From Longimicrobiales bacterium (GTDB lineage Bacteria; Gemmatimonadota; Gemmatimonadetes; Longimicrobiales; Gaopeijiaceae), in the NCBI GenBank assembly GCA_965238005.1, contig OZ250165.1, positions 2,816,001 to 2,880,000 on the forward strand: a stretch of DNA of 64,000 bases, given 5' to 3'. Positions within the stretch are counted from its first letter, which is position 1. Every line of letters starts with the position of its first letter. Shown here piece after piece: positions 22,708-25,700 of this stretch. The position numbers were made by a program.

Positions 22708-25700
22708 TAGTTCGAGTCTACCCAGGCCCACTTTTTAAGTACTAGCCCCGTAAGACCTTAGGGCTTGGCCGGCGGCTCGCCGTAAGGGCGCGGTGACATT
22801 CATGGTGGACAACCTGGCCATTGGGTTGTTCCCGGTACTGGTTACACTGCTGGGCTCGTACGTGAACTTTTTACAGGCAAACCCGGCGATGTTTGGAGTG
22901 GTGGCGGGAATCTACTGGGCGCCGTGTACCGGTTCCGGTTTGCTGGACAAGTCGGCGGCCTAATCAAGCCGCCTTCAGGGTGAGCTCCTGACGGACCTGG
23001 GCCGGGGTCCGATACCCATGCCGCTCTAGGAGCCACCCGCGGTTGTAGCGTTCGATAAACGCGTCGATCTCCTGTCTGGCCTCCTCGAGACTCTTGAAGT
23101 CGTGGAGGTACAAGCACTCCTCCTTCAGCGTCCGCATGAAGCGCTCTGCGACGCCGTTGCACTCCGGCTCTCCCACGTACGAGGCCGTCGAGCGGATCCC
23201 GAGCCAGGCCAGCTCCCCCTGGAACTGATGCGCCGTGTACTGCGGTCCCCAGTCGTGCCGTAGGCCGAGCCCCAGAGCGATCTTGGGCGCGTAGTCGTCC
23301 ATGTGGGTCCGTACGCCCTGGCGGATCGGCTCGAGCGCTGCCCACCGATCGCCCTTCTTCGCCACGTGCCAGCCCACCACGTCCGTGACGCAGTGATCCA
23401 CCGCCACGAAAAACCAGCACCACCCAGCCGCTGCTTCGGAAGATCACGGTTCCGCGGTTTGCGTCTTAAAGGCAGACGGAGAAAGGCGCAGCGGCTACTG
23501 TAGTGACACCCATATGGAGCCCTCGGACAGGCGAACCGGAAAGATCGACAGAGGTCGTTGGTTCTTGCTCACATCTCCTGCCTCTTCATGGCCTAGCGCC
23601 GTGCCATCCGCCGCCAACGCTCCGGTCCACACCCGTATCTCACCCGTCTCCAGATCGAAACAGCTCTCGTGCCAGCGGCAAGTGATGGAGTCGTCATCTC
23701 CCACCTCGCTATCGTTCAGCGGAGGCATCAGGTGGGGGCAAGCATTGTTGATTGCATGAAGACTGTCCGCCGTACGTATGAGGAGGAGATCGAACTCCTC
23801 GAGTTCGACGACCTTACGCGTGCCGATGGGCAATTCGGCCTCGCTGAGGACGCGCACCCAGTCCAGGCCTGCATATCTGTGCCTCGTCTCGTCTGGTTCT
23901 TCGACCTCGTCCGACAGGGCCGCCGCGGCCGATGGAGCCAGTCCCGAGATCTCGTATAGGCTCCAGCGCCCACTCGCCCCGGGCAGCTTTACCCGCACGA
24001 AGTCCTCGATCGTCACGCTTTCCTTCACCTCTTTGTACAGATCTTCGGAAACGAGCAAGCGGGTGTCGGCGGATTTGTTGGCGGCCTCGATTCGGCTGGC
24101 GACGTTGATGGTCTCACCGACCCCAGTGAGCTTCTCCGTCTTGGCGGATCCGACGGTACCGATCACGGCCGGGCCGTAATGCATACCGATCCCGACGTCG
24201 AAGCTTTGGCTGTACATCGCCTCCAGGTAGGGCTTGAGGCGATCTACCACATGGAGGATCTCCATCGCGGCCATCACACCTCGCAAGGGCGCGTGGGCGT
24301 CGTCCTCGATACCGAAGAGAGCCAGGACGCCATCCCCGTAGAAGTCGACGATATAGCCGCCGTTGCGCTCGATGACATCGCCTACCTGGAAGAAGTAGCG
24401 ATTCAGGATGAAGATGACGTCGTATGCAGACAGGGTTTCGGTCAGGGCCGTGAAACCACGTATGTCACAAAACAGAACGGCGACGTTCTTGACTGCGCCG
24501 CAACGCCCCAAGCGCTTCCGCGATAACTGGCTGGTGATCTCTAGATCCGTCTCGTCGAGCACTAGGCGTCGGAGCTTCACGTCGCCGACTACCTTGGTCT
24601 GGCAAGCCAAGCGTACCTCCGGCCCGAACCCGAGTCGATCTGCGAGGGAGCGTTCCCGATCCGAGCGTGCGACACAGTTCTCTAGTCCCTCCAGGATCCA
24701 GACACGGCAAGTGGAGCATCTGGCGTGGCCGCCGCACGCGTGTGCGTGTGCAAGGTTCGCCCGAAGTGTCGCTTCCAGAATCGTGTCGCCGTCCCTGGCA
24801 TCGATTCCCTTCCGGTCGGGAAGGCATGTGATTTTTGGCATCGGCTAGTGACCCATAACAGCTGAACGTTAAGCGACGTTGATCGGTCGCGAGGGTCATC
24901 ATACTGCCATTTGAAAGGATGAACGAATCATTAGCTCGTCCTTTCAGCGAGCCCGATCACGCCTGCGGCGGGAACATCACGGTGATCAGCCGGGCCTAAG
25001 GCAGCTAGGTTCCTTCAGGGTCCTAACGACCCACCGCGTGCGCTTCCGGTTCAAGAGAGTGACTAGGAAGCTCAGTAACATCGCACGTGGCGACATGGAG
25101 GATCGAGTTGATCGATGCCTAACAGGGCGGGTTCGCTCGGCGTGACGAGAAACCTGTAACACAACCTGTATCATCGCCCACCAGCGCTCATGAGCGCCCA
25201 CGAGCGCAGAATAGGCCAAATCCTCCGATTTCCAGCGCCCACGAGCGCCCACGAGCGCTCGACTCATATCTGATAAGCGTGAGGTCGGAAGTTCAAGTCT
25301 TCCCAGGCCCACTGTTCCAAGAGTAAGCCCCGGCACCAGTTACGGTGTCGGGGCTGTCTTGTTGGAATTGTCCACGTGTCCGAAACGTGTCCTGGATTCA
25401 GCTTGCGTTGACTGCGGCCAAGACCCCTGCGGGGTCTGCATGTTGATACGACAGCCGCAAAGCCTGTGTGTCTTTCCAGCCACCGGCCGCCGCTACGTCC
25501 GCGTCCGGCAGGCTCTTCCGCTCGGTCGCCCAAAGGCGTCTGTAGGGATGAAAAACCCCACCCACGAGCTTGGGGAGTCCGGCGAGTTTCTCGGCTTTGA
25601 GCACCCACTTGGCGACGGTGTCACGTCGAATCGGCCTGGAGTCGTCCCTCGGGGCTGGGAATAGTGGTGCGTTTCCCATTCGTGGGCGTTTGCGGCGGTC

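What a model noticed while it worked through the whole genome (the two positions that open the first line are those of the whole stretch)
23495..24841. Nucleotide cyclase flanked by two iron-sulfur domains
Two identical genes (g02729, and g01024 at C1:1057575-1058921) encode a 448-aa protein in which a class III adenylate/guanylate cyclase domain is framed by a plant-type [2Fe-2S] ferredoxin domain and a Rieske [2Fe-2S] domain. I read it as a soluble redox (or O2/NO) sensor that turns the oxidation state of two Fe-S clusters directly into a cyclic-nucleotide signal. The architecture is conserved in many uncharacterised proteins from several bacterial groups, and no cyclase with Fe-S input domains seems to have been studied, so it would define a new class of second-messenger sensor.
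Evidence so far: pfam.tsv shows Fer2 10-84 (E 7e-10), Guanylate_cyc 117-295 (5e-20) and Rieske 327-404 (2.5e-14) on both genes. There are 5320 homologues at E<=1e-20. Of the 120 best clusters (50-100% identity), 118 (433-490 aa) carry PF00111+PF00211+PF00355 and two shorter ones (261 and 361 aa) lack the Rieske part; the sources name them only 'class 3 adenylate cyclase/...ferredoxin subunit'. In an alignment of 24 of them (53-85% identical to g02729) these residues are invariant: the ferredoxin ligands C36, C42, C45 and C80, the cyclase metal ligands D126 and D170, N246 and R250, and the Rieske ligands H370, C388 and H391. C368 is kept in over 90%. I see no signal peptide or membrane helix in the sequence. 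[...]
(Added by a program. Inside this text positions count along the whole contig: contig position 2,816,001 is position 1 of the stretch shown here. "Call 12" and the like, gene names such as g00115 and contig names such as C1 are that model's own, and its searches are not shown. The text may have been shortened before it was handed on; [...] marks where a part breaks off. The agent that wrote the report below was given it as the finding of a first reader that could run no searches.)

Follow-up and report, generated by a model that had tools for sequence, protein, structure and literature searches.

The report
Soluble iron-sulfur-linked nucleotide cyclase
This gene encodes a soluble enzyme that probably makes a cyclic-nucleotide signal under the control of two iron-sulfur clusters; it is an unstudied variant of a redox-regulated cyclase type already known from a rhizobial membrane protein.

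Summary
Window 23495-24841 (minus strand) encodes a 448-aa protein with Fer2 (10-84), class III cyclase (117-295) and Rieske (327-404) domains. All eight cluster ligands and four catalytic residues are invariant in 29 homologues, and 118 of the 120 best database hits share the architecture.

Three corrections:
- The two genomic copies differ at residue 2 (447/448 identical).
- The ferredoxin is adrenodoxin/ISC-type, not plant-type.
- A cyclase with a [2Fe-2S] ferredoxin domain has been studied: CyaC of Sinorhizobium meliloti, a membrane-anchored, quinone/redox-regulated adenylate cyclase. A protein of that design in Ensifer is 40% identical to this protein across Fer2, linker and cyclase.

New here: Fer2-linker-cyclase is a conserved core. 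In other proteins it carries a peroxidase, globin, FNR-like, YceI, CDGSH, Rieske or membrane haem-type domain instead. I read the Fer2 cluster as the common redox transducer and the Rieske domain as the electron-exchange input.

The adenine-specifying lysine is replaced by Asp166, so the product is uncertain. The gene is sporadic among relatives, has no conserved neighbour and lies among mobile elements.

Verdict: a new variant of a known kind, of moderate to high interest.

The parts
23495..24841 (-). Whole gene (448 codons plus TAG stop): Fer2 - class III cyclase - Rieske protein (P0001)
   Evidence: ORF list and translation; Pfam
24590..24814 (-). Residues 10-84: adrenodoxin/ISC-type [2Fe-2S] ferredoxin domain; ligands C36, C42, C45, C80
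   Evidence: Pfam Fer2 E 2e-9; TIGR02007 E 1.3e-13; PDB 1i7h E 1.1e-11; ligands invariant in 29/29 and >=145/150 for C80
24494..24589 (-). Residues 85-116: conserved linker (R91-R92-L-V-x-D96-x-x-D99 ... G115) between Fer2 and cyclase
   Evidence: R92 132/150, D96 122/150, D99 132/150 and G115 126/150 across representatives of all architectures; low pLDDT at 94-114 in the monomer model
23957..24493 (-). Residues 117-295: class III (IIIb-like) nucleotide cyclase catalytic domain; D126, D170, N246, R250; specificity positions D166 and T239
   Evidence: Pfam E 1.9e-19; PDB 2w01 E 2.8e-22 and 3r5g 8.6e-17 with alignments; Foldseek TM 0.88-0.89 on the target; residue tallies
23504..23863 (-). Residues 327-446: Rieske-type ferredoxin domain; ligands C368, H370, C388, H391
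   Evidence: Pfam Rieske E 7.1e-14, Rieske_2 2.1e-8; PDB 8jng E 4.7e-8, CarAc 1vck 1.2e-4; ligands invariant 29/29
24842..24950 (-). About 110 nt upstream of the ATG, conserved with the Longimicrobiales relative L023 but not with copy 2; probably the native 5' region
   Evidence: tblastx and DNA alignment; no sigma-70 consensus site found
23493..24849 (.). Stretch shared with the second genomic copy (G000 1057573-1058929), 1357 bp, 99.85% identical, limited to the ORF
   Evidence: blastn and flank comparison; contigs of public runs break at 23493 and 24849, and their loose ends read the flanks of copy 2
22923..23429 (-). Neighbouring 0.5-kb IS fragment (integrase core, rve_3), one of about 12 copies in the genome; 64 bp from the gene's stop codon
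   Evidence: Repeat hits; Pfam rve_3 E 3.3e-15 on ORF 22964-23407

Best explanation
The gene encodes a soluble, probably homodimeric, class IIIb-like nucleotide cyclase whose activity is set by the redox state of its iron-sulfur clusters. The N-terminal adrenodoxin-type [2Fe-2S] domain, with its conserved linker, is the transducer that acts on the catalytic domain. The same Fer2-linker-cyclase core occurs in proteins built like the membrane-bound, quinone-responsive adenylate cyclase CyaC of S. meliloti. The C-terminal Rieske-type [2Fe-2S] ferredoxin domain is the input module. It exchanges electrons with the Fer2 cluster and with an unidentified soluble donor or oxidant, so cyclic-nucleotide output reports an intracellular redox couple or electron flux. 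By analogy with CyaC, the oxidised form would be the active one. Shown here: the domains, the ligands, the catalytic residues, the homology to a CyaC-like protein, and the modular family. Inferred: cluster binding, electron transfer between the clusters, the direction of regulation, and the product. The product is probably cAMP, but Asp166 replaces the adenine-specifying Lys.
For: The domains and all ligand and catalytic residues are conserved. The cyclase fold is confirmed. Residues 8-268, covering Fer2, linker and cyclase, align colinearly at 40% identity (E 1e-54) with an Ensifer protein that has TM-like N-terminal segments followed by Fer2 and cyclase. Three TM segments were scored; six were read by eye. 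Published work describes that design, CyaC, as holding [2Fe-2S] and as redox-regulated (PMC10463352 passages; PMC4821796 passages). I scanned 78 of the 150 best 50%-identity representatives. The 72 not scanned were mostly <=350 aa. All but one N-truncated protein carry Fer2+cyclase, and 60 carry a further Pfam-recognised domain: peroxidase 16, C-terminal globin 12, N-terminal globin 9 (2 weak), FNR-like 8, C-terminal Rieske 7, YceI 3, and one each of N-terminal Rieske, C-terminal CDGSH, Ferric_reduct TM, DUF4079 and DUF2769. Another 11 have unassigned N-terminal extensions, several with TM-like segments. From general knowledge, most of these domains are known electron partners of [2Fe-2S] ferredoxins. 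The accessory domain can sit on either side of the core. That fits a domain that must reach the Fer2 cluster better than one that acts through a linker. The linker motif is conserved across architectures. On a tree of the core, architectures cluster but changed repeatedly: 24 changes against a shuffled mean of 55, and 0 of 200 shuffles were as low. The Rieske domain's nearest solved relatives are electron-carrier Rieske ferredoxins (8jng, CarAc). The genome has 4 cNMP-binding domain matches and 21 cyclase-domain matches, so cyclic-nucleotide signalling is in use.
Against: There are no biochemical data for this protein or for any Fer2-cyclase-Rieske protein. The role of the [2Fe-2S] cluster in CyaC itself is not separated from that of the haems in the passages I read. 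Asp166 replaces the adenine-specifying Lys, and within the family that position varies: K 72, N 40, D 13 of 150. Product, and even full activity, are therefore uncertain. The monomer model has pTM 0.53, so no confident inter-domain arrangement is available. No conserved neighbouring gene points to a donor or a target; the best neighbour cluster occurs in 8 of 80 loci. The gene is sporadic among relatives (2 of 30) and sits among mobile elements, so it is dispensable in this lineage. Orthology of the Ensifer protein to SMc01818 was not verified.
Confidence: 0.6

Rival explanations
1. Cluster-occupancy sensor. Activity depends on whether the clusters are present, not on their redox state. The protein would report iron or sulfur supply, or cluster damage by O2, NO or H2O2, as cluster-loss regulators do.
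For: The Fer2 domain's best curated match is the ISC-system ferredoxin (TIGR02007, E 1.3e-13). Sister architectures carry peroxidase and globin domains that react with H2O2, O2 or NO.
Against: By general knowledge, adrenodoxin-type and Rieske [2Fe-2S] clusters are stable electron carriers rather than labile sensors. FNR-like and membrane haem partners point to electron transfer. CyaC is reported to respond reversibly to quinone and quinol (PMC10463352).
Confidence: 0.15
2. Only the Fer2 cluster regulates. The Rieske domain is a structural or dimerisation domain, or a docking site for another protein, and takes no part in electron transfer.
For: Two-domain Fer2-cyclase proteins exist and are interleaved with Rieske forms on the tree. 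The Rieske_2/NirD-like profile also matches.
Against: All four Rieske ligands are invariant in 29 of 29 homologues, which argues that a cluster is kept.
Confidence: 0.12
3. The cyclase makes a product other than cAMP (cGMP or a pyrimidine cyclic nucleotide). One version: it is the cyclase of a Pycsar-like anti-phage system carried on a mobile island.
For: Asp166 replaces the adenine-specifying Lys. PADLOC PycC profiles hit the cyclase domain at E 3.6e-21. The best solved match is Cya2, titled a guanylyl cyclase. The window copy lies among integrases and IS fragments.
Against: No Glu at the specificity position in any of 150 representatives. K-T, which I recall as the class IIIb adenylate pair, is the commonest combination (66/150). 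There is no PADLOC hit on any of the 6 neighbouring ORFs tested and no conserved neighbour in 80 loci, so the effector gene that defines Pycsar is missing. The PycC score is no better than the general Pfam cyclase score.
Confidence: 0.1
4. The window copy is a decaying or silent passenger in a mobile-element scrapyard, with no present function.
For: It is flanked by an IS fragment and integrases, is sporadic among relatives, and truncated relatives exist (P0044, P0108; L024).
Against: The ORF is intact, with every functional residue kept. Two copies are maintained at 447/448 identity. The window copy keeps about 110 nt of upstream sequence conserved with a relative.
Confidence: 0.03

Closest known systems
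CyaC (SMc01818) of Sinorhizobium meliloti, a redox-regulated class III adenylate cyclase (Wissig et al. 2019, known to me through PMC10463352 passages and recall), and the 'ferredoxin-associated class IIIb' cluster of Beltz et al. 2016 (PMC4821796 passages)
   Same: A [2Fe-2S] ferredoxin domain sits directly before a class IIIb-like catalytic domain. Fer2, linker and cyclase are colinear and 40% identical to an Ensifer protein of that architecture. The expected logic is the same: redox state is converted into cyclic nucleotide.
   Different: There is no 6TM dihaem-B membrane anchor, so the protein is soluble. It has an extra C-terminal Rieske [2Fe-2S] domain. Asp replaces Lys at the adenine-specifying position. 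The input cannot be the membrane quinone pool acting through haem b.
Small-sensor-plus-cyclase photoreceptors bPAC/OaPAC (BLUF-class IIIb cyclase; PDB 5m2a, 4yus)
   Same: A small N-terminal cofactor-binding domain, a short linker and a class III cyclase in a soluble protein. Foldseek aligns about 300 columns.
   Different: The cofactor is a flavin and the signal is light. The large rmsd (about 15 Å) shows that the N-terminal domains and their placement differ.
Electron-transfer chains of Rieske oxygenases (reductase [2Fe-2S] to Rieske ferredoxin such as CarAc, or the MSA monooxygenase ferredoxin 8jng) and BenC-type reductases (Fer2 + FAD + NAD domains)
   Same: The same two cluster types occur together. 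The Rieske domain's nearest solved relatives are these carrier ferredoxins. Sister proteins carry the FNR-like FAD/NAD module.
   Different: A cyclase domain lies between the redox domains. There is no oxygenase partner and no conserved neighbouring gene. The output is presumed to be signalling, not catalysis.
Pycsar cyclases (PycC)
   Same: Homologous cyclase domain (PADLOC E 3.6e-21).
   Different: No adjacent effector gene. The Fe-S domains are not part of Pycsar.

Membership tests
Class III nucleotide cyclase (PF00211), subclass IIIb | Catalytic-domain profile match above the curated cut-off, and the class III fold | tested here: met
   70.4 bits against a cut-off of 21.9; Foldseek TM 0.88-0.89 (target-normalised) to 2w01 and 3r5g
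Class III nucleotide cyclase (PF00211), subclass IIIb | Two metal-binding Asp and the transition-state Asn and Arg | tested here: met
   D126, D170, N246 and R250 are invariant in 29/29 and present in 135-141 of 150; positions assigned from the alignments to 2w01 and 3r5g
Class III nucleotide cyclase (PF00211), subclass IIIb | Adenine-specifying Lys | tested here: not met
   Asp166 aligns with the Lys of 3r5g and the Glu of 2w01. Family tally: K 72, N 40, D 13 of 150
Class III nucleotide cyclase (PF00211), subclass IIIb | Thr at the second specificity position (IIIb hallmark, as I recall from Linder and Schultz 2003) | tested here: met
   T239; T in 111/150. The ferredoxin-associated cyclases are called class IIIb in PMC4821796
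Class III nucleotide cyclase (PF00211), subclass IIIb | Cyclase activity and its product | not testable with these tools
   Needs an enzyme assay
CyaC-type redox-regulated Fe-S adenylate cyclase | [2Fe-2S] ferredoxin domain directly N-terminal to the cyclase, homologous to that of CyaC-like proteins | tested here: met
   40% identity over 262 residues, E 1e-54, to the Ensifer protein L093:745-2421 with TM-like N-terminal segments, Fer2 and cyclase. Orthology of that protein to SMc01818 was not verified
CyaC-type redox-regulated Fe-S adenylate cyclase | Hexahelical dihaem-B membrane anchor with four His | tested here: not met
   No TM-like segment in P0001; the protein starts 9 residues before the Fer2 match
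CyaC-type redox-regulated Fe-S adenylate cyclase | Activity changes with redox state | not testable with these tools
   Needs biochemistry
Adrenodoxin/ISC-type [2Fe-2S] ferredoxin | C-x5-C-x2-C ... C ligand pattern and profile match | tested here: met
   C36-x5-C42-x2-C45-x34-C80; TIGR02007 E 1.3e-13, below that equivalog's cut-off, so domain-level only; 1i7h E 1.1e-11
Rieske-type ferredoxin | C-x-H ... C-x-x-H ligand boxes and profile match | tested here: met
   C368-P-H370 and C388-R-W-H391, invariant in 29/29; PF00355 at 51.9 bits against a cut-off of 20.3; 8jng and 1vck
Adrenodoxin-type and Rieske-type ferredoxins | Actual binding of [2Fe-2S] clusters | not testable with these tools
   Needs spectroscopy
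Pycsar anti-phage system | Cyclase gene paired with an adjacent cNMP-activated effector gene | tested here: not met
   PycC profiles hit the cyclase domain, but none of the 6 neighbouring ORFs tested has a PADLOC hit and there is no conserved neighbour in 80 loci

The most novel reading that the evidence does not exclude
Fer2-linker-cyclase is a general plug-in module that turns the redox state of one [2Fe-2S] cluster into a cyclic-nucleotide signal. Bacteria have wired it to at least ten different electron-input domains: Rieske, CDGSH, FNR-like flavin, globin, haem peroxidase, YceI, dihaem-b and ferric-reductase-type membrane anchors. Each variant would then report a different redox couple (NAD(P)H, H2O2, O2/NO, quinones, soluble ferredoxin pools) through the same output. 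The window protein would be the soluble two-cluster representative, with a non-canonical Asp at the base-specifying position and possibly an altered product.
Probability: 0.35. Interest if true: 0.75.

Novelty: new variant of a known kind. Interest (0 to 1): 0.6.

Why it matters
Direct coupling of cellular redox state to cAMP is known in bacteria from essentially one studied protein, membrane-bound CyaC. This soluble form, with two chemically distinct [2Fe-2S] clusters, would be much easier to purify and to study by spectroscopy and structure. It could show how the redox state of a cluster is passed on to a class III cyclase.

The family is large: 531 representatives at E<=1e-30, and 491 of 598 pattern-matched stretches in species-representative genomes encode a relative. 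It occurs in cultivable, genetically tractable rhizobia such as Mesorhizobium and Ensifer. The swappable input domains suggest a family of sensors for different redox couples, and possible parts for engineered redox-to-cAMP reporters.

Tried and rejected
- **Complex prediction:** Fer2 (1-95) against Rieske (315-448) gave no verdict. The score was 0.25 against a mark of 0.32, and controls were not run (collected).
- **Expression:** no RNA holder was listed for the stretch.
- **Conserved neighbours:** the search over 80 related loci found none. The best cluster occurs in 8 of 80 loci, mostly Mesorhizobium synteny. ORF calling there was a crude greedy longest-ORF pick and can choose the wrong strand in GC-rich DNA.
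- **Earlier findings of this scan:** nothing by sequence.
- **Promoter scan:** no sigma-70 consensus site in 23300-25100.
- **Literature:** ten full-text searches found no paper on a Fer2-cyclase-Rieske protein, or on Fer2-cyclases fused to peroxidase, globin or FNR. Wissig et al. 2019 and Bassler et al. 2018 are not held. Those two papers, subscription journals and supplements may contain domain catalogues I could not see.
- **Cys56:** it is invariant among the 29 close homologues, but it is not specific to the Rieske subfamily. I dropped it as a lead.
- **Full census:** I scanned 78 instead.
- **Pycsar reading:** rejected (see membership test).
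Full report
**1. What is there**

Window 23495-24841 holds an intact 448-codon ORF on the minus strand. 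Pfam finds Fer2 at residues 10-84, the class III cyclase domain at 117-295 and a Rieske domain at 327-404, with Rieske_2 over 327-446. All score well above the curated cut-offs.

The ferredoxin part has the ligand spacing C36-x5-C42-x2-C45-x34-C80. Its best matches are the ISC-system ferredoxin profile and the E. coli Fdx, adrenodoxin and putidaredoxin chains. It is therefore adrenodoxin-type, not plant-type.

The cyclase part aligns best with Cya2 (2w01), P. aeruginosa CyaB (3r5g) and the light-regulated cyclases. An AlphaFold model (mean pLDDT 80.6, pTM 0.53) superposes on those domains with target-normalised TM 0.88-0.89.

The Rieske part has C368-P-H370 and C388-R-W-H391. Its nearest solved relatives are carrier-type Rieske ferredoxins: the methanesulfonate monooxygenase ferredoxin 8jng and CarAc. 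A crude hydropathy scan finds no membrane segment.

**2. Conservation**

Of the 120 best database clusters, 118 (433-490 aa) carry all three domains. In 29 aligned homologues at 50-90% identity, the four ferredoxin cysteines, the four Rieske ligands, the two metal aspartates, N246 and R250 are all invariant.

The residue that aligns with the adenine-specifying Lys of CyaB and the Glu of Cya2 is Asp166. Across 150 wider representatives this position is K in 72, N in 40 and D in 13. The second specificity position is T in 111.

None has Glu. K-T is the commonest pair (66/150), and I recall it as the class IIIb adenylate pair. So cAMP is the likeliest product for the family, but it is not secure for this protein. 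From memory, mycobacterial cyclases without the Lys (Rv1900c, Rv0386) still make cAMP; I did not check this here.

**3. The two copies and their setting**

The second copy (G000 1057578-1058921) is 447/448 identical. The only ORF differences are two bases in codon 2, giving Pro versus Ala.

The shared stretch is 1357 bp and is confined to the ORF. It stops 2 nt after the stop codon and fades out about 17 nt before the ATG. The window copy keeps about 110 nt of upstream sequence that is conserved with a Longimicrobiales relative; copy 2 does not.

Contigs of four public runs break at exactly 23493 and 24849, and their loose ends read the flanks of copy 2. So both contexts exist outside this assembly, although the best holders may be the source sample itself. 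Gene conversion between older paralogues fits the graded 5' edge. A precise recent copy is not excluded.

The two neighbourhoods differ:
- **Window copy:** it lies between a 0.5-kb IS fragment, two tyrosine recombinases and further IS copies.
- **Copy 2:** it lies among ordinary genes, including an M28 peptidase and a BBE-type FAD oxidase.

The genome (4.84 Mb, 64.8% GC) is full of IS copies. Its closest relatives for this gene are Longimicrobiales (85%).

The gene is sporadic. Only 2 of 30 relatives searched have a match at E<=1e-40, and neither of the two same-genus genomes does. Of the 80 best loci in species-representative genomes, 75 are Pseudomonadota, including 22 Mesorhizobium and 5 Ensifer/Sinorhizobium. 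Four are Gemmatimonadota and one is Methylomirabilota. No neighbouring gene is conserved; the best cluster occurs in 8 of 80 loci.

**4. What it belongs to**

An exhaustive profile search gave 531 representatives at E<=1e-30. Most of the 150 best match only residues 1-300, that is, Fer2, linker and cyclase.

I scanned 78 of them against Pfam. The 72 left out are mostly 350 aa or shorter. The architectures were:

| Architecture | Count |
|---|---|
| Fer2-cyclase-peroxidase | 16 |
| Fer2-cyclase-globin | 12 |
| Globin-Fer2-cyclase (2 weak) | 9 |
| Fer2-cyclase-FNR-like (NAD_binding_1, with or without FAD_binding_6) | 8 |
| Fer2-cyclase-Rieske (one with four CDGSH motifs in front) | 7 |
| Fer2-cyclase-YceI | 3 |
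| Rieske-Fer2-cyclase | 1 |
| Fer2-cyclase-CDGSH | 1 |
| Ferric_reduct-Fer2-cyclase | 1 |
| DUF4079-Fer2-cyclase | 1 |
| DUF2769-Fer2-cyclase | 1 |
| Unassigned N-terminal extension, several with TM-like segments | 11 |
| No assigned extra domain | 6 |
| N-truncated | 1 |

The linker motif R-R-L-V-x-D-x-x-D is kept across all of these. On a tree of the core, architectures cluster but changed many times: 24 changes against a shuffled mean of 55. The Rieske forms fall in a well-supported group with two-domain and membrane-anchored forms.

**5. The known relative**

- Beltz et al. 2016 (PMC4821796; passages read) described 30 class IIIb cyclases with a ferredoxin between a fumarate-reductase-like haem-b 6TM anchor and the catalytic domain.
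- Klein et al. 2023 (PMC10463352; passages read) summarise Wissig et al. 2019. S. meliloti CyaC binds two haem B and a [2Fe-2S] cluster, and its cyclase activity is activated after oxidation by quinones. I could not read the 2019 paper itself.

Two Ensifer/Sinorhizobium genomes that also carry the three-domain gene each have one paralogue matching residues 8-286 or 8-293. The Ensifer one is a 558-aa protein with TM-like, His-bearing N-terminal segments followed by Fer2 and cyclase. One search scored three TM segments; by eye I read six. It is 40% identical to the window protein over 262 residues (E 1e-54). It aligns full-length with representatives P0254, P0267 and P0248 from the list. I could not verify that it is the orthologue of SMc01818.

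**6. How it most likely works**

The shared core argues that the Fer2 cluster and its linker are the element that talks to the catalytic domain. The variable domain sets what the cluster exchanges electrons with.

By general knowledge, most of the accessory domains are established partners of [2Fe-2S] ferredoxins: FNR-type reductases as donors, and Rieske ferredoxins and haem proteins as acceptors. The accessory domain can also sit on either side of the core.

For the window protein I therefore propose a short internal relay between the Fer2 and Rieske clusters, open to an unknown soluble donor or oxidant. Cyclase output would follow the Fer2 redox state, with the oxidised form active by analogy with CyaC.

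All of this is inference beyond the sequence facts. Cluster binding, electron transfer, direction and product are untested. Rivals are a cluster-loss sensor, a passive Rieske domain, and a different product, including a Pycsar-like role. The Pycsar reading fails on the missing effector gene.

**7. Verdict**

It is not a new class. It is an uncharacterised soluble, two-cluster variant of the CyaC-type Fe-S cyclases, and one branch of a larger modular family that does not appear in the literature I could search.

Noticed in passing
window 23493-24849 and G000:C1:1057573-1058929: The duplicated stretch is confined almost exactly to the ORF, from 2 nt past the stop codon to about 17 nt before the ATG. 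The only two ORF differences are both in codon 2. Public-run contigs break at the same two positions and read the flanks of the other copy. Gene conversion between old paralogues or a precise copy event: open.
   Followed up: partly
window 29552-31161 and 33908-35517; 13660-15004; 22923-23429: The genome is crowded with near-identical mobile elements. A 1.6-kb DDE-transposase IS occurs at about 45 places and a 1.35-kb element at about 17. A 0.5-kb integrase-core fragment occurs at about 12.
   Followed up: partly
window 19883-22606 (+): Three consecutive ORFs of 390, 129 and 390 aa. The last is a tyrosine recombinase and the first two have no Pfam match. They recur at 80-86% DNA identity at several other genomic places. 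This looks like a multi-gene recombinase element next to another integrase at 18503-19804.
   Followed up: no
L009:13306-14129 (G000 about 1061306-1062129), and L023:7490-8239: A SCO4226-like (nickel-responsive protein family) ORF is followed by a short cyclase-domain ORF. It may be one gene split by a frameshift. It lies 2.4 kb from copy 2. A similar gene lies directly downstream of the homologue in a Longimicrobiales relative.
   Followed up: no
window 52246-52701 (+): Another class III cyclase domain lies in the same window (G000 2868246-2868701; open frame 349 aa). The genome has 21 cyclase-domain matches and 4 cNMP-binding-domain matches.
   Followed up: no
window 28900-29092; G000 1058969-1059136: A repeat of about 170-190 bp, 88-92% identical, occurs at several genomic places. 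One copy lies about 45 bp upstream of the second cyclase copy. It may be a miniature mobile element.
   Followed up: no
proteins P0124, P0135, P0182 (database representatives): Unusual relatives. P0124 has four CDGSH motifs plus Fer2, cyclase and Rieske, so up to six [2Fe-2S] sites in one chain. P0135 is Fer2-cyclase-CDGSH. P0182 is Fer2-cyclase-globin-cyclase.
   Followed up: no
window 25874-26692 (-) and 26877-27173 (+): A DUF2911 protein and a TetR C-terminal fragment without its DNA-binding part lie upstream of the gene, among IS remnants.
   Followed up: no
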